50,843 nucleotides of DNA from an uncultured Candidatus Saccharibacteria bacterium (GCA_964405095.1 CAYOML010000005.1:1-50843), one strand, 5' to 3'; positions 835 through 15,104 are shown, numbered from the stretch's first letter. Notes: generated by a model from the sequence alone, not told the origin. Program-made: numbers and translations.

Positions 835-888
835 AGAATATCAAATTGATATTCGTGTTTTTAACAACTGACGTTGACTTGCACTACC

Positions 889-973
889 AAATTGTTAAAG
901 GACCGCCAATCCCTTCCACCAGATTAGCGGACAGACTGAGAGCAATCATACTCCATGACCCTCTCGAAGTCAA
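889..973 (-). promoter_or_regulatory. rRNA operon sigma70 promoter and boxA-like antitermination site
   Basis: Minus strand TTGACT (968-973), 17 bp spacer, TATGAT (945-950); GTCCTTTAACAATTT at 889-903 resembles boxA (TGCTCTTTAACA). Confidence 0.8.
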
Positions 974-8538: not shown

Positions 8539-11500
8539 TTAAGAGGTAGTCTGTCCGGGCTTAGGTGGAATGCCGTCTTCACCCCGGTGATGCAAGCGGC
8601 CTTGCATATCAATATAGATTTCGTCTAAGTTATTGCCGGCAGGCGCAACAGGCGTTTCGGGGGCCTGTGCTGCCGAAGACTGGCGGTTGAGTATCAACTG
8701 GCCATCACTACTCTTAACTTGCTGTGTAGGTTCTTGAGGGGGCGGAGCGGCTAAGCTATGTATTTTGGCCGAGGTTAGAGCAGTTTCTAGCTCCTTGGCA
8801 TCATAATCGGTTTGTTGACTATCCCTGGGGTCCTTGAAGCTAATATGCCCACCGAAGCCCTGATTTTCCAGATCGGTTAACCTACGATGGTCGCTGGTAT
8901 CAGTATTTAGGGGTGTTACAGTTGACCCAACGCTGGTCGTTGGTAGCGGGGCCACCTGGCTCGGCATAGCGGGAACTTTTGGTTGCCAGCTAGCTGGAGG
9001 CTGTGTAGCAGCAAGGGGGCTAGGTGAACCCGTTGCTTGAGGTTGAGCTTGCACTGGGGCTAACGTGGGCAGGTTATCATTGTTGGTTTGTGTGCCAGCA
9101 ACTGGTTGCTGTGCCGGCTTTGCTCCGAATTGCTGCTTGCGCTTAGCCAGCCACTCGTCAAGGAACGATGAGCCGCCAGCCTGGGTAGAGGGCGGGGCAC
9201 TACGCTGCTCTCCTAGAGGTGCACCTGGTTGAGACTTTCCTGACTGACGCATTCTATCAAGCGCCGCCTGTCGACGAGACTCGCGCTCATCATCACCCGC
9301 CTTAAGGCGCTTAAATATCTCCTGCTCGACAGCGGCTCGCGGTCGCCCGTACTTGGCCGCTGATAAACGTTTCAGCGCTTGAGAAAGCTGGGCGTTAGGC
9401 TGACCGAGTGGCGGAATAAGCGCCATACTAAAAGGCGCTGATGGGACATTATTGATCATCACCGAAGCGACTGCCTCAAAGTTCGGCAGTTTTGTCAGGT
9501 CTTCGGCATCAAATGTTGGCGAAAATTTCTTGGTCATCAATTCGGCGTCCGTTGTACCAATACGCCCAGATATAACAGTACCTACGTTACCTATAACTGC
9601 TTCCCGGATCTTATCTGGTAGCTGAGTCATGAACTGGTTGGCAAGTACCAAGCTCAGACGATATTTACGAGCCTGTGACAAAATAATCTCAAATGACTCA
9701 GTCGCAAAGTTTTGAAACTCGTCGGCGTAAAGTGTGAAGTCGACACGCTGATCCTCAGGCGTGCCTGCCCGTCCCATAGCTGCAGCTTGAAATTTCATGA
9801 CGAAGATCATACCCATCAGCTGCGAATTCAACTCGCCCATCTTGGAAATGTTGATTAGCAAGATCTTTTTGTTATCCATAATGTCGCGCAAATCAAAACC
9901 ACTTTTAGTCTGACCAATGATGTTGCGCATCATCTCATTGGAGAGGAAGGCACCAAATTTACTGACAAACCAGCCTAAAACCTCACTCTTGTGGTAGTCG
10001 CTGGTCTGCGCCATTTCCTTGTTCCAGAAGTCAAGCACTGTTTGATCAGTGACGTATTTGAGTTTTGCTTTTGAGAAGTCGTTATCATTAAACACCTGTG
10101 GTATATCAATAAACGAGGAGCCTGCAGGATCACTCATAATTGTTAGGGCAGCATTGCGAAACCAGTGCTCATAACGAGGGCCAATGATACCGGTATGACC
10201 AGGATCGTAAAGACGATATAGCATGGCAATCGCCTCTTGAATCAGCAAATCACGCTGATTTGAGCTCTCAAACTCGAATAGGTTTAGCCCAATAGGAGTA
10301 TCGAGCATGTCGCCTGGGGCAAAATAAATTACATCCTCTACACGCTCGCGAGGCACCATAGCCAGTAGTCTCTCGGCAGAGTCGCCGTGTGGATCGAGAA
10401 AAGCAAAGCCCTTGCCATCCAGCATGTCCTGTAGGGCTAGGTTTTCAAGCAACGCCGACTTACCTGTACCAGTCTGACCAATAATGTAAACGTGGCGCCG
10501 GCGATCCACATCGCCCAATCTAATTTCCTTCTTAATACCTCTAAACATGTTATAGCCGAGCAACAACCCACCTTCTGAAGTTTGATTGGGGCCGTCCACT
10601 TGCTTGGAAGCTTGACGTTTAAGTTGCGAGGTTGGCGTGTTGCGCTGATCTGGAAAGTGAAAGATTGTCGCAAGCTCTACGCTATTCATAATGTTTTGTC
10701 GCATTTCCTGTGGGAAGAAACGAAAAATAAAAGCTGTTACAAATTCCTCGATATTTTTAGATAGTGTGAACCTGAAACCGTTCTTGCTTGGTGAATCGAA
10801 TAATGAGAATGCTGCCACAATATTTTTCAAAATCGCCTGTGAACGGGCTGAGGTATTGGAAGATGCAACAACACGCACTAAGACCTCGTATCCAGGATGT
10901 CGAGTTTTATCCTCTATGGCGTCTACAGTCGCTTGTTCGAGTGCACTTAGTTGCTTGTCCTCCGGCTTCGTCTCCTTGCTCTCAGGGGGCTTCCAGAGCG
11001 CTCCAGCGACATCTTTAACGGAGATGAGCCCACTCTTCACGCCCTTATCCTTCCGAATCTTGTTGGCGCGGTTTATAGAGCCCTTAACCCATTTGTCACC
11101 AGCAGGGCGCAACAAGATCTGGATACCCGCACCGTCCTCACGCTGCAGGGTCGATAATGAGTTAAGAATCGCCTGCATAGCATCTCGTTTTGTCTCTTGA
11201 TAGGTAGCTATTGGATAGCTAAACTCTTTCCTAAGCGTAAGCTCACCACCAATTGTGCCGCTGATCTTACCGACAGTGCTGAAGATATTGTGCTCTTCGC
11301 ATTCCTCAACTCGGGCTGTCGGATAAGCAGCCAGTACAGCTTGCTGTACTACCTCCGTTAACACAAGAGGCGTTACCAGATAGAAGTGTATAAGGCCTTT
11401 ATTTGCGATAATTTCTAACGCAAGGTGCCGTTGGCCATACAGCCGACTTTTAAAACCCTTGGTCGCTGTGCTAGCAATAATGTTATACATGATCTGCGCT

Positions 11501-11718
11501 TGAGAGATTGCCTCTTCTGCTACCTCTCTTGCATCACGCGCGCCAAGTTCTATGTCGTCACTTGATGGTGGCAAGTGAATCAGTAGCGGTACCATTTTGA
11601 GGCCACGTTCGTAATTCTTAGCCTCGCGCACAATCCTTCGGTATTGCCAGTACACCAGGTATAGAACTACCAGTAATAAGCCGACGCCTATTGCAATGCC
11701 CACAAAGAGATCGCTCAT
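8539..11718 (-). CDS. VirD4/TraG-like (HerA/FtsK superfamily) coupling ATPase with N-terminal TM and Pro/Gln-rich tail
   Basis: RRRHVYIIGQTGTGKS (Walker A), LDPHGD, LYADEFQNF (Walker B), ARKYRLSLVLANQ. Confidence 0.85.
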   Translation of the reverse strand: MSDLFVGIAIGVGLLLVVLYLVYWQYRRIVREAKNYERGLKMVPLLIHLPPSSDDIELGARDAREVAEEAISQAQIMYNIIASTATKGFKSRLYGQRHLALEIIANKGLIHFYLVTPLVLTEVVQQAVLAAYPTARVEECEEHNIFSTVGKISGTIGGELTLRKEFSYPIATYQETKRDAMQAILNSLSTLQREDGAGIQILLRPAGDKWVKGSINRANKIRKDKGVKSGLISVKDVAGALWKPPESKETKPEDKQLSALEQATVDAIEDKTRHPGYEVLVRVVASSNTSARSQAILKNIVAAFSLFDSPSKNGFRFTLSKNIEEFVTAFIFRFFPQEMRQNIMNSVELATIFHFPDQRNTPTSQLKRQASKQVDGPNQTSEGGLLLGYNMFRGIKKEIRLGDVDRRRHVYIIGQTGTGKSALLENLALQDMLDGKGFAFLDPHGDSAERLLAMVPRERVEDVIYFAPGDMLDTPIGLNLFEFESSNQRDLLIQEAIAMLYRLYDPGHTGIIGPRYEHWFRNAALTIMSDPAGSSFIDIPQVFNDNDFSKAKLKYVTDQTVLDFWNKEMAQTSDYHKSEVLGWFVSKFGAFLSNEMMRNIIGQTKSGFDLRDIMDNKKILLINISKMGELNSQLMGMIFVMKFQAAAMGRAGTPEDQRVDFTLYADEFQNFATESFEIILSQARKYRLSLVLANQFMTQLPDKIREAVIGNVGTVISGRIGTTDAELMTKKFSPTFDAEDLTKLPNFEAVASVMINNVPSAPFSMALIPPLGQPNAQLSQALKRLSAAKYGRPRAAVEQEIFKRLKAGDDERESRRQAALDRMRQSGKSQPGAPLGEQRSAPPSTQAGGSSFLDEWLAKRKQQFGAKPAQQPVAGTQTNNDNLPTLAPVQAQPQATGSPSPLAATQPPASWQPKVPAMPSQVAPLPTTSVGSTVTPLNTDTSDHRRLTDLENQGFGGHISFKDPRDSQQTDYDAKELETALTSAKIHSLAAPPPQEPTQQVKSSDGQLILNRQSSAAQAPETPVAPAGNNLDEIYIDMQGRLHHRGEDGIPPKPGQTTS

Positions 11719-11726
11719 CTCTTAGG

Positions 11727-12152
11727 CTACTCACTACTTAATTTAAGTTCTTTACCGTAGCGTTTCTTCAGGTAGTCTGCTTGTAGTTTACTAACTTCTT
11801 TTTCCTGACTGTATGGATCGTTCTTAGTTTGGCCAACGATTTTTTTGGCTTTATCAACCCATTCTTTTTCAACCAGGTCTTCATCAGCAGCAGCCAGCGG
11901 GCCAGTATTATCTGTGGGTGCATGGACGACAGGTACGCTTGGTTGTGGCATAGGCAGCGTTGGTAACTGCGGCAATGCCATCACCGGAGTTGACCCTGTA
12001 CCAGTCTGAGGACTGGACTCGGCAGTCTCAGCGCTGACTGGCGCTTTCTCTGGCGCATGCTTTAAGACCTCCCCAAGGGTTTTGAGGGTCTCGGGCGGAT
12101 GATAAGCCGCCATTTCTGGCGACGGGATTGACGCTGGTGATCCTGGCTCCAT
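11727..12152 (-). CDS. Hypothetical protein (Pro-rich N-terminus, helical C-terminal domain)
   Basis: 141-aa ORF 8 nt upstream of the ATPase; TGnTACAAT upstream of ATG. Confidence 0.8.
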   Translation of the reverse strand: MEPGSPASIPSPEMAAYHPPETLKTLGEVLKHAPEKAPVSAETAESSPQTGTGSTPVMALPQLPTLPMPQPSVPVVHAPTDNTGPLAAADEDLVEKEWVDKAKKIVGQTKNDPYSQEKEVSKLQADYLKKRYGKELKLSSE

Positions 12153-12192
12153 AACTAGCTAAATTGTATCATACGACGTTCCAAGAACCCAT

Positions 12193-12600
12193 CTATATAA
12201 CCTCTTTGGAACTACGCCGTATAACATAAAAACAGCCCAGACCAATCAGGATTACCACAAGAACAATGTCTTTTGGGTCTAATTGGTTAAGGGTATTAAG
12301 AGCCAATAAAAACACGGGGCCCAAACCTATGACGCTTGTCAAATAGTAAGCAGTTTTCATGTTAGCCGACCTCGCTATGTTCAGTAGGCGTAAGATTTTG
12401 ATCACACTAAAAACCATTGCATATAGCACACTTGTAACAAACAGATATATCAAAACAAAGGCGGCCAACACGCTCAAGGGGCCGCTTTGTAAAGGGTTTG
12501 TAATATTAAGAAAGAACAATATACCCAAACCCCATAAAAACGGTAGACCGTAGATCGACGCGAGTCTTATGTGCCCTATCCATTCTGCTATGCTTACCAT
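12193..12600 (-). CDS. Hypothetical 4-TM membrane protein
   Basis: Strongly hydrophobic ORF; ATG at 12600 preferred over the upstream GTG, which lies in a terminator U-tract. Confidence 0.7.
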   Translation of the reverse strand: MVSIAEWIGHIRLASIYGLPFLWGLGILFFLNITNPLQSGPLSVLAAFVLIYLFVTSVLYAMVFSVIKILRLLNIARSANMKTAYYLTSVIGLGPVFLLALNTLNQLDPKDIVLVVILIGLGCFYVIRRSSKEVI

Positions 12601-12614
12601 GACTTTAACTCTAC

Positions 12615-12910
12615 ACAAAAAAGCAAAGGCAGGAAATGCGCTCTACGTATTATGACTTATGTAGCGCTTCCTGCCTGTTGCTGTTGACCGCTCTCTTTAC
12701 AATAAGAGAGCACGTCTTAGCTTGTCATTCAGCCCCAAAACTTGAGACCGAACCACGGGGGAATGCCCTGCGGCTTGGCGTATTTATGCCAACCATATCG
12801 AGAGCTTGTTTGGCAATTTATCCGCCAAGCCGCATAGCATATGAGTAAGGTGCAAGCCTTTAGCTCAACTTTTCTTTGTTTCAAAGGTTGTTCGTTTTTG
12901 CCAAAAGCTA
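12615..12910 (-). ncRNA. Candidate structured ncRNA or attenuating leader (~295 nt), unknown family
   Basis: Promoter TTGACT-17-TATGTT (12916-12944); several long hairpins; final hairpin followed by a U6 tract; no credible ORF. Confidence 0.6.
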
Positions 12911-13099
12911 CTCCAAACATAGCATATGCTTATGCTTAAGTCAACCTATTATCAAGATATTGTCGATGTGTTTATTACATTGATGATCTGTAGAGAAAAA
13001 ATTTGAACACAAAAATGTAATCGAATCCCAGTGTTGTTAATACAACCCTTTATACTGCTTATTTGCCATCTGCGTAATTAGAGTTTAAAACTAGATCAG

Positions 13100-13695
13100 T
13101 TTATTTAACGCTCACAGCGCAGTTTGGTGTAGCCGGGTTGGCACACGAGTTATGAACTGCAGAGTCAAATAAAAGTCAGTCACATTGTTGCCCAGTGTTT
13201 TTGTAATTTTCTTTTGCCCTCAGCCCAGCAATTGTGCGTACATACCAACTAACTTGACCATATGGAAATTAGCCATGCTATGGTCTGTGCCATTTTAGGC
13301 ACAGAATTCGCATTGGCTCATGGCATTGATAATGACAATAATAATCGTGAGTCGACACACGCTCCGTGCTTGGACTTGCCCATCCCTACACATAGTCCTC
13401 ACGTCTAAGCACGGCGCCATGATTCAGACATTAAACTTTGCCACGCGTTGCAGCAGCTATGGGATGGTCAGAGCCTTGAGCCTTGGTTCTGAAACTAAAT
13501 TGCTGATACTGTGTGTTGGGTGTAAGCGAATGTAAGTAAACACGATGGTCAAATGTTACAGCAACCTGAGCCGAGGCGCCTTAAGTCATACGTACCGGCA
13601 TCAAATCGGAGTCGATCGGGTCGCGAGTACTCGGTCGCGTTGACACGTATCGCCCCGGGTTATGATCGTCAGGCTGACTGTAGGCGGGCAATAAA
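13100..13695 (+). ncRNA. Candidate large multi-stem ncRNA (~480-600 nt), unknown family
   Basis: Nested long-range stems, G-U wobbles consistent with the + strand, possible pseudoknot; no credible ORF; promoter not identified. Confidence 0.45.
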
Positions 13696-13726
13696 AAATG
13701 TCAGTAATTTAATTAACCATTAGGAC

Positions 13727-13821
13727 TTTTCCACAGTTTTTGCACAATACAAAAAATAGCGTTGACAGGCAGGTGGTGGCACACTATTATAGGGGTAGCA
13801 CTTGAGTAAAAAAAGTGCTCA
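13727..13821 (+). promoter_or_regulatory. Two DnaA-box matches, sigma70 promoter and CIRCE-like inverted repeat
   Basis: TTTTCCACA (13727-13735) and TTTTGCACA (13738-13746) match TTWTNCACA; TTGACA-17-TATTAT (13762-13790); GTAGCACTT-N9-AAGTGCTCA (13795-13821). Confidence 0.65.
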
Positions 13822-13841
13822 AAAACAAAAAAGAAAACATG

Positions 13842-13874
13842 AACAACGGCTTCTCGCAGGCCGTTGTTTTTATT
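13842..13874 (+). terminator. Intrinsic terminator
   Basis: AACAACGGC-loop-GCCGTTGTT followed by TTTATT. Confidence 0.7.
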
Positions 13875-13894
13875 GGCTGATATGTAAAATTGGG

Positions 13895-14087
13895 ACTGGT
13901 CTTGGCAAACGACCCATAAAGTCAGGGTGTGATTTCCTGCTCTTCACGCCACGGCGGATTCACGACGAGAAGCATTTGGAGTCTGCTGGCGGAAGTAAAA
14001 TTGGTGCAAGCTGGAATTACGACTAGGTCGCTAGCGCGACATGTTTCTAGCTGCCCGTCGATCGTAAAATCACCCTCGCCTGCCAGT
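13895..14087 (+). ncRNA. Candidate structured ncRNA (~190 nt)
   Basis: Closing stems plus two internal hairpins with + strand G-U pairs; TAAAAT at 13885-13890. Confidence 0.4.
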
Positions 14088-14140
14088 ACATAGTAAAAAC
14101 CTGAGTGGGATGCTGGGCATAGGAAAAAATATATAATGCT

Positions 14141-14986
14141 CTAGATTCCATAGCCAGCTCGTAAGGCCTCAACTAGCAGTGTTTTGACCGAACTCCTAGG
14201 TCTGTACCGACGATTCCCCACCAGTAGCGGCAGCGACTCTTGTCCGCTCAACCGTCTTTGTAACAGTTCAATACTTGACCTTGGTATTGTGCCGCTGGCC
14301 CGTTGAGACGTGAATTTGGCGGCTAACATTGATAGCTTGCAAACTGTTTCAGCCAGCACCTCGGGTCTATGCCGGCTGTCCATAACATAGTCCGTCGGCA
14401 CCCACGTCTTAGATAATTCTCCAAAGGGAGCAACCTTTATGCCAAGTTGACTTACCAAATATTCCAGGCCCCAACCATGGTGGTAGGTCGGACGAAAAAC
14501 TAGTCTAACTTGAGGTATGACCTCGATCTTGCCAGGGACGACAGCCTCGTAGACTTCCCGATGGCCACGTATATAGTCTAGTTGCTGCTTGAAAGTGGGC
14601 AATTGCTCTATCAATTCCCATTCAGGTATAAAAGGGTCGGTTTCGATACAGTCATGCTTAGTATCCCCCATTACACTATTACCGCCGGATAGATGCATCT
14701 CATCACGCGATGTATAGGCGATGAGGTGCTGTAAACCAGTGGGTACTAAGTCACCATCAAACTCGTCGTCACCTGGAAATAGCACGTATTCCTTGTCCCA
14801 TTCCTGACCAAATGTTTCGACAACCCAATGAGCAATATTCGTTGCAAAGCTATTGGTTGATTCGATCGACTCGTGCCGAAAATCCCATTCATCAACTAAT
14901 TTGCCAGCAAATGCTAATACTTCTTGGATTGGTACCTCTGGGTTGTTAGTGGTCTCGTGGTTATCTGGGCGGGTCGGGTCTGCCAT
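14141..14986 (-). CDS. Hypothetical protein (no recognised family)
   Basis: Long ORF; ATG (MADPTRPD) chosen over the upstream alternative start; lies just downstream of the tmRNA 3' end. Confidence 0.75.
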   Translation of the reverse strand: MADPTRPDNHETTNNPEVPIQEVLAFAGKLVDEWDFRHESIESTNSFATNIAHWVVETFGQEWDKEYVLFPGDDEFDGDLVPTGLQHLIAYTSRDEMHLSGGNSVMGDTKHDCIETDPFIPEWELIEQLPTFKQQLDYIRGHREVYEAVVPGKIEVIPQVRLVFRPTYHHGWGLEYLVSQLGIKVAPFGELSKTWVPTDYVMDSRHRPEVLAETVCKLSMLAAKFTSQRASGTIPRSSIELLQRRLSGQESLPLLVGNRRYRPRSSVKTLLVEALRAGYGI

Positions 14987-15104
14987 AGACCCATTTAGGC
15001 AAAATACCTGGAGAAGGGCAAGCATGAGCAGAAATGTTTCAGATCAAGAAGTTAGCATGAAACTGTAGGGAATGCCCACTCGAGTGCAATACTCTACGAA
15101 CCAT

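What the first reader, a model, noticed from the sequence alone, without database searches (positions are those of the whole stretch)
12615..12944. ~295-nt promoter-to-terminator structured RNA upstream of the VirD4-like operon
The minus-strand promoter is TTGACT-17-(TGC)TATGTT. The 5' end TAGCTT (12905-12910) can pair with 12718-12723 to close a multibranch domain. That domain includes a 12-bp stem TGCGGCTTGGCG/CGCCAAGCCGCA with inner TGCCAA/TTGGCA. It is followed by GCTCTCTT/AAGAGAGC and a ~60-nt hairpin plus U6 ending ~15 nt before the next ATG. It is either a free sRNA or a riboswitch-like attenuator. No T-box or known aptamer consensus was recognised. Strand is inferred from promoter and U-tract; wobble pairs are ambiguous.
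Basis: partly seen in the sequence, partly recalled or inferred. Interest (0 to 1): 0.7.

Follow-up and report, generated by a model that had tools for sequence, protein, structure and literature searches.

The report
Conserved leader RNA of Saccharibacteria
This is a real, strongly folded RNA with no match in Rfam 15 that sits in front of a DNA-pump-like gene cluster in nearly all genomes of one order of tiny parasitic bacteria (Saccharibacteria), and it probably controls whether those genes are read.

Summary
On the minus strand a TTGACT-17-TGcTATGTT promoter (12944-12916) drives a ~295-nt RNA (12912-12615). It folds into five hairpins (-116.7 kcal/mol, z = -6.55). The last hairpin plus U6 ends 15 nt before the next ATG.

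It matches no Rfam 15 family and is single-copy in the genome. Its 3' core (hairpin P4, the linker GGUCAG, hairpin P5) occurs exactly once per genome in 122 of 151 sampled genomes of the order. Record titles identify that order as Saccharimonadales. The core was found in 0 of 144 genomes of other Patescibacteria orders. Compensatory changes and strand-specific G-U pairs support the fold.

In 40 of 42 loci it lies directly upstream of the same operon: a small membrane protein, a small protein, and a VirD4-like ATPase.

The common form is ~150 nt. Its 3' end varies: a separate terminator, P5 used as the terminator (this window), or no terminator with the ORF starting about 10-30 nt after the RNA (12-31 nt in four loci read).

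Best reading (~0.55): a new cis-acting leader/attenuator whose sensor is unknown. The main rival is a free-standing sRNA. No switching helix was found and no expression data were available.

A second, extremely conserved small RNA lies about 0.9 kb upstream.

The parts
12939..12944 (-). -35 hexamer TTGACT
   Evidence: TTGAC is invariant in the 5-genome alignment. TTGACA-like hexamers with 17-nt spacing recur across the order.
12916..12924 (-). TG-extended -10 (TGC TATGTT)
   Evidence: TGnTAnnnT is conserved in relatives.
12615..12912 (-). The RNA, from the inferred start (about 12912-12909) to the U-tract
   Evidence: Fold z = -6.55. The ends are inferred from the promoter and terminator, not measured.
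12852..12911 (-). P1, the 5' hairpin. Its A-rich stretch GGCAAAAACGAACAAC lies at 12902-12887 and is a degenerate copy of the order-wide motif AAAACAAAAAC.
   Evidence: In the short form the motif sits in a hairpin loop in 44 of 63 sequences, with 22 distinct arm pairs.
12847..12857 (-). GCUUGCACCUU, the 3' arm of P1 plus a conserved tail
   Evidence: CTTGCACCTT is nearly invariant in the 5 family sequences.
12763..12840 (-). P2, the 12-bp stem plus inner stem. It is a family-specific insertion.
   Evidence: Compensatory changes are seen. It is missing in G004 and in other families.
12724..12756 (-). P3 hairpin, the expanded form of the small CGGY/RCCG hairpin seen in other families
12686..12716 (-). 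P4 hairpin (GCUCUCUU/AAGAGAGC). The base pairs CGCUC/GAGCG are invariant order-wide.
   Evidence: In one search, four of the five basal pairs are kept in 63 of 63 sequences and the fifth in 61 of 63.
12683..12689 (-). J4/5 linker GGUCAAC. The order consensus is GGUCAGUCAAAG.
   Evidence: GAGCGGTCAGT is invariant in 63 of 63 sequences.
12622..12682 (-). P5, a long hairpin with the conserved inner part GGAAGCGCUA...GAGCGCAUUUCC and a 2-nt bulge (GA in the order consensus, CA in this window). In this window it doubles as the terminator stem.
   Evidence: The G-U pair is kept in 37 of 42 and 62 of 63 sequences.
12616..12622 (-). U6 tract (UUUUUUG)
12193..12600 (-). ORF1, a 135-aa membrane protein. 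Its ATG at 12600 lies 15 nt after the U-tract.
   Evidence: Homologues lie downstream of the RNA in relatives.
11727..12152 (-). ORF2, a 141-aa protein with a conserved C-terminal ~60 aa
   Evidence: An ORF2-like domain also sits next to the ATPase in a genome outside the order.
8539..11718 (-). VirD4/TraD-like (T4CP-like) ATPase, 1059 aa
   Evidence: Pfam T4SS-DNA_transf and TraG-D_C; NCBIfam weak hits to conjugative coupling proteins.

Best explanation
The RNA is a member of a family with no Rfam 15 match, confined to the order Saccharimonadales (Saccharibacteria/TM7). It acts in cis as the 5' leader of the operon ORF1 (small membrane protein) - ORF2 - VirD4-like ATPase.

A strong sigma-70-type promoter starts transcription at P1. 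The conserved core then folds. The core consists of the A-rich motif in P1, the invariant base of P4, the linker GGUCAG, and P5 with its invariant CGCU/AGCG helix and two-base bulge (GA in the consensus).

In this window P5 plus U6 forms an intrinsic terminator 15 nt before the ORF1 start codon. Most transcripts would therefore stop as a ~295-nt RNA, and the operon would be made only by read-through (attenuation).

What is shown: the RNA fold, its conservation, its strand, its constant position, and the variety of 3' ends.

What is inferred: that read-through is regulated, and that the invariant core binds a factor, either a small molecule or a protein. The two near-identical half-sites CGCUC...GAGCGG and GCGCU...GAGCGG would suit a dimeric protein. 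The sensor is unknown.
For: 1. The structure is real and is RNA on this strand. Fold z = -6.55. On 42 sequences 90.3% of cells pair against 79.2% in shuffles, 16 of 25 pairs show double changes, and 0 of 500 shuffles reach the observed values; slid controls collapse. The G-U pair in P5 is kept in 37 of 42 sequences and 62 of 63, and it would be C-A on the other strand.

2. There is one copy per genome: 14 of 19 family genomes and 122 of 151 genomes of the order. Weaker or divergent copies sit at the same place in 7 of the 8 genomes re-examined without the speed filters.

3. It always lies upstream of the operon and on the same strand. ORF2 and the ATPase N-terminus are found downstream in 40 of 42 loci. 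One of the other two is cut by a contig end, and the other (G029) has a ~550-nt insert but the operon still follows.

4. The 3' end varies as riboswitch and leader expression platforms do. Of 112 loci with enough flank, 63 have a separate variable terminator, 22 have P5 plus a U-tract, 11 have both, and 16 have none by my criteria.

5. In L131, L080, L074, L065 and L063 the ORF1 start lies only 23-53 nt after the last conserved block. That is about 12-31 nt after P5 in the four I read. There is no terminator and no room for a promoter, so in those lineages the RNA must be the 5' UTR of ORF1.

6. In this window 15 nt separate U6 from the ATG, which leaves no room for a standard promoter.

7. 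The invariant helices and linker contrast with freely covarying outer pairs. This is the pattern of a binding core.
Against: 1. I found no alternative (antiterminator) pairing that competes with P5. Folding the five family sequences without the 3' strand of P5 gave no common partner for its 5' strand.

2. In most lineages the terminator is separate from the conserved core and variable in sequence. This also suits an independent sRNA gene.

3. The whole neighbourhood is syntenic. comM lies within 1.5 kb upstream in 21 of 38 loci, and a second RNA lies upstream in 35 of 41. Constant linkage to the operon is therefore weaker evidence than it looks.

4. TAnnnT hexamers 6-11 nt before several ORF1 start codons, including TAGAGT 7 nt before the ATG here, could be -10 boxes of a separate, leaderless-type promoter. 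This was not tested statistically.

5. A near-consensus promoter is more usual for abundant stable RNAs.

6. The simple terminator scan did not call P5.

7. There are no expression data.
Confidence: 0.55

Rival explanations
1. It is a free-standing, abundant small RNA gene with its own strong promoter and its own terminator. It would act in trans or as part of an RNA-protein particle. It merely neighbours the ATPase operon, which has its own weak or leaderless-type promoter.
For: The promoter is near consensus (TTGACA-17-TAGTAT type) across the order. A terminator-like 3' end is present in 96 of 112 loci. No switching helix was found. It is single-copy and order-wide, like housekeeping RNAs. 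The neighbouring, even more conserved RNA-2 shares the motif CAAAAACAAAAAC and, in this window, stands alone between opposite-strand genes, so free sRNA genes of this style do exist here. -10-like hexamers lie just before several ORF1 starts.
Against: In at least five lineages ORF1 starts 23-53 nt after the conserved block with no terminator between them, so there the RNA is part of the mRNA. In 150+ genomes it was never seen away from the operon. The 15-nt gap in this window cannot hold a standard promoter.
Confidence: 0.25
2. It is a constitutive 5'-UTR module with no sensor. It could be a processive-antitermination element (like put or EAR RNAs) that lets RNA polymerase pass the following terminator and transcribe the ~4.4-kb operon. 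Or it could be an mRNA stability, processing or translation-recruitment element.
For: The terminator is separate from the conserved core and not interlocked with it in 63 of 112 loci. That fits elements that modify the polymerase rather than switch structure. No antiterminator helix was found. Many ORF1 starts lack a Shine-Dalgarno sequence. An A-rich unstructured motif is conserved.
Against: There is no similarity to any Rfam antitermination family. The A-rich motif is not the genome's boxA: the rRNA leader carries a canonical-looking CCTTTAACAAT instead (the boxA consensus is recalled from memory). Nothing was tested functionally.
Confidence: 0.12
3. The region is protein-coding (the 63-aa minus-strand ORF 12920-12729 or the 70-aa plus-strand ORF 12636-12848), or it is a DNA-level element such as an oriT or repeat element.
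For: Both ORFs are open in this window. A coupling-protein gene lies nearby, which is where an oriT might be expected.
Against: The longest ORF in the homologous region changes strand, frame and length among the 14 family loci (14-76 aa). It has a median of 26 aa in 27 short-form loci. A 1-nt indel shifts the frame inside the most conserved block. Neither ORF has a Pfam hit. G-U pairs are strand-specific. The element is not repeated in the genome.
Confidence: 0.03

Closest known systems
Riboswitch-type and protein-binding 5' leader attenuators (orphan riboswitch candidates in general)
   Same: Promoter, then a conserved folded domain with an invariant core and covarying helices, then an intrinsic terminator just before the first gene. 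The expression platform differs between lineages: a terminator, or close apposition to the start codon.
   Different: It matches none of the 4227 Rfam families. No ligand or gene-function clue is available. No mutually exclusive antiterminator helix was found. The promoter is unusually strong. The family is confined to one order and one operon.
prgQ leader (Qs RNA / IRS1 terminator) of the enterococcal conjugative plasmid pCF10 (recalled from memory, not fetched)
   Same: A few-hundred-nucleotide leader RNA ends at a terminator in front of genes of a monoderm-type conjugation/T4SS apparatus. Operon expression depends on read-through.
   Different: There is no sequence or structural relation, no antisense partner was seen, and no peptide is encoded. 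Here the gene set is chromosomal and phylum-wide, not on a plasmid.
Processive antitermination RNAs (phage HK022 put, Bacillus EAR; recalled from memory)
   Same: A conserved structured RNA lies upstream of terminators it does not pair with, in front of a long operon.
   Different: No Rfam match. The architecture differs. No evidence was obtained for polymerase modification.
6S RNA (ssrS) co-transcribed with a downstream gene
   Same: It is single-copy, broadly conserved within its clade, driven by a strong promoter, and followed by a gene on the same strand.
   Different: RF00013 gives no hit in this genome. The fold is a row of hairpins, not a rod with a central bubble.
SRP (4.5S/scRNA) RNA
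   Same: It is a single-copy conserved hairpin RNA. An RNA for SRP seemed to be 'missing' from these genomes.
   Different: RF00169 and RF01854 do not match it. No SRP54-type GTPase was found in 21 relatives or in 41 genomes of the phylum. Loss of SRP is already reported for Parcubacteria (PMC4508563, passages read). The P5 apex is AU-rich and variable, not a GNRA loop.

Membership tests
Any Rfam 15 family (4227 models) | Covariance-model score at or above the family's gathering threshold | tested here: not met
   No hit over the region at gathering threshold. At E <= 10 there were only chance-level miRNA/sRNA hits of 20 bits or less. There were no hits in 6 homologous loci.
T-box leader | Stem I specifier loop plus a T-box antiterminator sequence (Rfam T-box model) | tested here: not met
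   No T-box match even at E <= 10.
SRP RNA | Match to RF00169 or RF01854 | tested here: not met
   RF00169 was found in 0 of 31 genomes of the order.
SRP RNA | A partner protein Ffh (SRP54 GTPase plus M domain) encoded in the genome | tested here: not met
   TIGR00959 and PF02978 were not found in G000. PF00448 was found in 0 of 21 and 0 of 41 genomes, while the 14 control genomes all matched.
6S RNA | Match to RF00013; a rod-like fold with a large central bubble | tested here: not met
   No RF00013 hit in G000. The MFE and consensus folds are serial hairpins.
Intrinsic (Rho-independent) terminator | A GC-rich hairpin directly followed by a U-tract | tested here: met
   P5 (12682-12622) is followed by U6.
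Sigma-70-type promoter | -35 and -10 hexamers with 16-18 nt spacing, conserved in relatives | tested here: met
Riboswitch / cis-regulatory leader (kind, not family) | A conserved folded domain with covariation | tested here: met
Riboswitch / cis-regulatory leader (kind, not family) | Constant position in the 5' region of the same gene set, on the same strand | tested here: met
   40 of 42 loci. It is contiguous with ORF1 in at least five lineages.
Riboswitch / cis-regulatory leader (kind, not family) | A mutually exclusive terminator/antiterminator (or RBS-sequestering) pairing | tested here: inconclusive
   No common alternative partner for the P5 5' strand was found in the 5 family sequences. 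The duplicated half-sites CGCUC/GAGCGG allow strand swapping on paper only.
Riboswitch / cis-regulatory leader (kind, not family) | Ligand or protein binding that changes read-through | not testable with these tools
   This needs in-line probing, termination assays or pulldown experiments.
boxA (NusB/NusE antitermination site) | Similarity of the A-rich motif to the boxA of the genome's own rRNA leader | tested here: not met
   The rRNA leader has CCTTTAACAAT. The motif here is CAAAAACAAAAAC. The boxA consensus is recalled from memory.

The most novel reading that the evidence does not exclude
The RNA is the sensor of a new riboswitch or RNA-protein switch class restricted to Saccharibacteria. 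It would gate a phylum-wide, VirD4-like DNA-translocase operon. Together with the neighbouring ultra-conserved RNA-2 and the rsmH upstream region, which share the 13-nt motif CAAAAACAAAAAC, it would form a small RNA-based regulon tied to DNA transfer, competence or cell division in these obligate epibionts.
Probability: 0.25. Interest if true: 0.8.

Novelty: new variant of a known kind. Interest (0 to 1): 0.62.

Why it matters
Saccharibacteria are ultrasmall obligate epibionts with about 0.6-1.3-Mb genomes. My literature searches found no description of their non-coding RNAs, apart from the usual tmRNA, RNase P, rRNA and tRNA genes that Rfam recognises here.

This RNA is single-copy, conserved across the order, complex in fold and driven by a strong promoter. 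That makes it a handle on how these organisms control a conserved coupling-protein-like ATPase. Its homologues occur in 146 of 151 sampled Patescibacteria genomes, and their role is unclear.

If it binds a metabolite, it would be a new riboswitch class and would point to a signal these parasites sense. If it binds a protein, it would define a new autoregulatory circuit. In either case it supplies a ready covariance model for annotating hundreds of metagenome-assembled genomes.

Tried and rejected
- Repeat element (REP/MITE): rejected. The element is single-copy in the genome.
- Known RNA families: none match.
- SRP RNA: rejected. The weak RF00169 candidate at G000:C2:59406-59505 was not confirmed by cmscan, and I saw no SRP motifs in its sequence.
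- 6S RNA: rejected.
- boxA: rejected.
- Hfq as reader of the (AAN)n-like motif: no Hfq domain was found in G000.
- Coding potential: rejected.
- Closing helix 12910-12905 with 12723-12718: not conserved. The RNAalifold long-range helix CUUGC/GGUCAG has no double changes.
- Antiterminator search by truncated folding: nothing consistent.
- tRNA-like NCCA tail after P5: CC(A/U) follows P5 in only about 40% of 114 sequences, so I did not pursue it.
- P1 3' arm pairing with the GUAAG of P5: no covariation by eye.
- Expression data: no RNA holder was listed for window 11700-13300, and read laying was not used.
- Literature: searches, and term look-ups in PMC8040213 and PMC7160235, found no description of this RNA.
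- A full-length covariance model was not built. The MAFFT alignment A6 is poor in the variable linker.
- One script failed on an index error and was corrected.

Full report
**1. What is in the window**

On the minus strand, a -35 TTGACT (12944-12939) and a TG-extended -10 TGCTATGTT (12924-12916) are spaced 17 nt apart.

The stretch 12912-12615 folds into five successive hairpin domains at -116.7 kcal/mol. Dinucleotide shuffles average -82.1 (sd 5.3), so z = -6.55, and 0 of 200 shuffles fold as well.

The domains are P1 12911-12852, P2 12840-12763, P3 12756-12724, P4 12716-12686 and P5 12682-12622, followed by U6 at 12622-12617.

The ATG of a 135-aa membrane protein (ORF1) lies at 12600, 15 nt after the U-tract. 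It is followed by a 141-aa ORF2 (12152-11727) and a 1059-aa ATPase (11718-8539). The ATPase has T4SS-DNA_transf and TraG-D_C Pfam hits and weak NCBIfam hits to conjugative coupling proteins.

The proposed closing helix (12910-12905 with 12723-12718) is complementary on paper, but it is not used in the MFE fold and is not conserved.

**2. It is not something ordinary**

- It is single-copy in the 880-kb, 20-contig genome.
- No Rfam 15 family matches at gathering threshold, and at E <= 10 only chance-level hits appear.
- The 63-aa and 70-aa ORFs that overlap it have no Pfam hit. In 14 family loci the longest ORF changes strand, frame and length.

**3. Conservation**

BLAST against 40 relatives found the P5 region in four genomes of the same family at 78-83% identity, with collinear weaker hits further 5'. 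An alignment of the five full-length sequences shows a conserved promoter, P1, P4 and P5, and compensatory changes in P2.

A covariance model of the 3' core (model R1: P4, the linker, P5) gave these results:

| Sample | Genomes with a hit |
|---|---|
| Same family | 14 of 19, one hit each |
| Same order | 122 of 151, one hit each; 107 of 131 high-quality genomes |
| Other orders of the phylum | 0 of 144 |

In that phylum-level sample, only 1 of 6 other same-order genomes passed the stricter filters.

In eight 'no-hit' genomes searched again without the speed filters, weaker or divergent copies lie at the expected place upstream of the ATPase in seven of them:
- L177: 23 bits; L174: 20 bits; L176 and L175: about 14 bits.
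- L188: 29.6 bits.
- L183 and L184: a variant that keeps GAGCGGUCAG, seen by eye.
- The eighth, L178 (G063), gave only about 9 bits (E about 1.5), which is not significant.

Nearly all were titled Candidatus Saccharibacteria, Saccharimonadales or Patescibacteria, so the order is Saccharimonadales. A few hits in other phyla have stretched gaps and look like chance; L072 is a confirmed false positive.

One row of these alignments (L030) comes from the unpublished genome G001. No claim depends on it alone.

**4. Structure support**

On 42 core sequences:
- 90.3% of cells form standard pairs, against 79.2% in shuffles.
- 16 of 25 pairs show changes on both sides.
- The covariation score is 0.372 against 0.164 in shuffles, and 0 of 500 shuffles reach the observed value.
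- Sliding the partner by one to three columns drops pairing to 35-52%.

The alignment was fitted to the model, which favours it. An independent MAFFT alignment of 63 short-form sequences recovers P4 and inner P5.

The base of P4 (CGCUC/GAGCG), the linker GGUCAGU and the inner helix CGCU/AGCG with a GA bulge are essentially invariant. The outer P5 pairs covary freely.

A G-U pair in P5 is kept in 37 of 42 sequences and in 62 of 63. This fixes the transcribed strand as the window's minus strand.

**5. Architecture across the order**

Most members are short. A TTGACA-17-TAGTAT-type promoter lies about 36-110 nt before the GAGCGG of P4 in 77 of 103 distinct sequences that had a scorable promoter. 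That call started from 122 loci, and duplicates and low-scoring promoters were dropped together.

The order of elements is:
1. P1, usually GUAAGU...ACUUAC, closing a loop that holds AAAACAAAAAC. The motif is in a hairpin loop in 44 of 63 sequences, with 22 distinct arm pairs. 8 of 63 had no motif by my pattern, and in 11 it lies outside a loop.
2. An A-rich linker, sometimes with a small CGGY/RCCG hairpin.
3. P4, whose apex is often CCUAAAGG or GCGAAUAGC.
4. The linker GGUCAGUCAAAG.
5. P5.
6. A short tail, often NCC(A/U).

The window's family carries a ~140-nt insertion (P2 and an expanded P3) between P1 and P4.

**6. Context**

ORF2 and the ATPase N-terminus lie downstream on the same strand in 40 of 42 loci. 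One exception is cut by a contig end. The other (G029) has a ~550-nt insert but still carries the operon.

The first 360 aa of the ATPase have homologues in 146 of 151 Patescibacteria genomes. An ORF2-like domain sits beside the ATPase in a genome outside the order. The operon is therefore older than the recognisable RNA.

PMC12102498 (passages read) reports that VirD4-like coupling-protein homologues are abundant in Patescibacteria and mostly lie far from virB4. It also reports that this homologue was not essential in one cultured Saccharibacterium.

**7. The 3' end and what it implies**

Of 112 non-redundant loci with at least 100 nt of flank (examples):
- 63 have a separate, sequence-variable hairpin plus U-tract after P5.
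- 22 use P5 plus a U-tract, as in this window.
- 11 have both.
- 16 have none by my criteria.

In L131, L080, L074, L065 and L063, ORF1 starts 23-53 nt after the last conserved block, with no terminator and often no Shine-Dalgarno sequence. In those lineages the RNA must be the 5' UTR of ORF1.

A conserved core with lineage-specific expression platforms is the signature of a cis-regulatory leader. This is the main reason I favour that reading (about 0.55).

Several points count against it:
- No conserved antiterminator was found.
- The terminators are not interlocked with the core.
- The promoter is near consensus.
- The whole region is syntenic.
- -10-like hexamers sit just before some ORF1 starts, including TAGAGT 7 nt before the ATG here.

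A free-standing sRNA (about 0.25) or a constitutive antitermination or stability module (about 0.12) therefore remain open.

**8. Alternatives examined and dropped**

- SRP RNA. I tested this because RF00169 is found in 0 of 31 genomes of the order. However, no SRP54-type GTPase is found in 21 relatives or in 41 genomes across the phylum, while all 14 control genomes match. Loss of ffh and ffs is already reported for Parcubacteria (PMC4508563, passages read).
- 6S RNA.
- boxA. The rRNA leader has its own CCTTTAACAAT.
- Hfq as a partner: no Hfq domain was found in G000.

**9. A second RNA, noticed in passing**

A divergently transcribed element lies about 0.9 kb upstream at 13797-13880 on the plus strand, with a promoter TTGACA-17-TATTAT at 13762-13790.

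It is conserved at 81-93% identity in 35 of 41 other loci. It consists of a hairpin AGCACUU/AAGUGCU, a single-stranded CAAAAACAAAAAC, and a hairpin AACAACGGC-UUCUCGCAR-GCCGUUGUU. Rare compensatory and G-U changes fit its own strand.

It shares the 13-nt A-rich motif with P1 of the finding. Exact copies of that motif occur one to three times per genome in five genomes. They include a conserved site with several copies upstream of rsmH.

**10. Verdict**

The finding is real and is not in Rfam 15. I found no description of it in six literature searches or in term look-ups in two papers. It is best described as a new family of leader/attenuator-type RNA specific to Saccharimonadales, with its sensor and mode of action still to be determined.

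Noticed in passing
window 13762-13880 (+ strand): A second, extremely conserved small RNA ('RNA-2'). It has a promoter TTGACA-17-TATTAT followed by about 85 nt: hairpin AGCACUU/AAGUGCU, single-stranded CAAAAACAAAAAAG, then hairpin AACAACGGC..GCCGUUGUU plus a U-tract. It is 81-93% identical in 35 of 41 other loci of the order, has no Rfam family, and is transcribed divergently from the finding. It shares the finding's A-rich motif.
   Followed up: partly
G095:C1:~109090, G085:C1:~110980, G136:C1:~82340, G029:C1:~50090 (loci L190-L192, L195): The 13-mer CAAAAACAAAAAC occurs exactly one to three times per genome in five genomes, which by my rough estimate is far more than chance. A conserved third site carries several copies just upstream of a gene whose product begins like RsmH/MraW.
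   Followed up: partly
whole genome G000 and relatives: No SRP components were found. RF00169 was found in 0 of 31 genomes, the SRP54 GTPase domain PF00448 in 0 of 21 relatives and 0 of 41 genomes of the phylum, and TIGR00959 and PF02978 were absent from G000, while all control genomes matched. Loss of SRP is already published for Parcubacteria (PMC4508563).
   Followed up: partly
window 13925-14100 (- strand): A reading frame resembling the C-terminal half of a cupin domain (...GEGDFTIDGQLETCRASDLVVIPA...), with no start codon, lying just after the 294-aa ORF (14141-15025). It may be a gene remnant or a frameshift.
   Followed up: no
window 12960-13760: About 800 nt between the two divergent RNA promoters with no ORF of 100 aa or more and no nucleotide conservation in relatives. 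It includes an 18-nt inverted repeat at 13361-13378 / 13400-13417.
   Followed up: no
window 8539-11718 and Patescibacteria genomes: The N-terminal 360 aa of the VirD4-like ATPase have homologues in 146 of 151 sampled genomes of the phylum, often two per genome. G000 has a paralogue at C1:93214-94176.
   Followed up: partly
window 835-960 (- strand): The rRNA operon leader has a promoter TTGACT-17-TATGAT and a boxA-like CCTTTAACAAT upstream of the 16S gene, which is cut at the contig end.
   Followed up: no
loci L068, L080 (genome contigs): Contigs carrying the complete Saccharibacterial RNA sit in MAGs titled as other taxa (Pristimantibacillus sp., Sulfotelmatobacter sp.). They are probably mis-binned contigs.
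   Followed up: no
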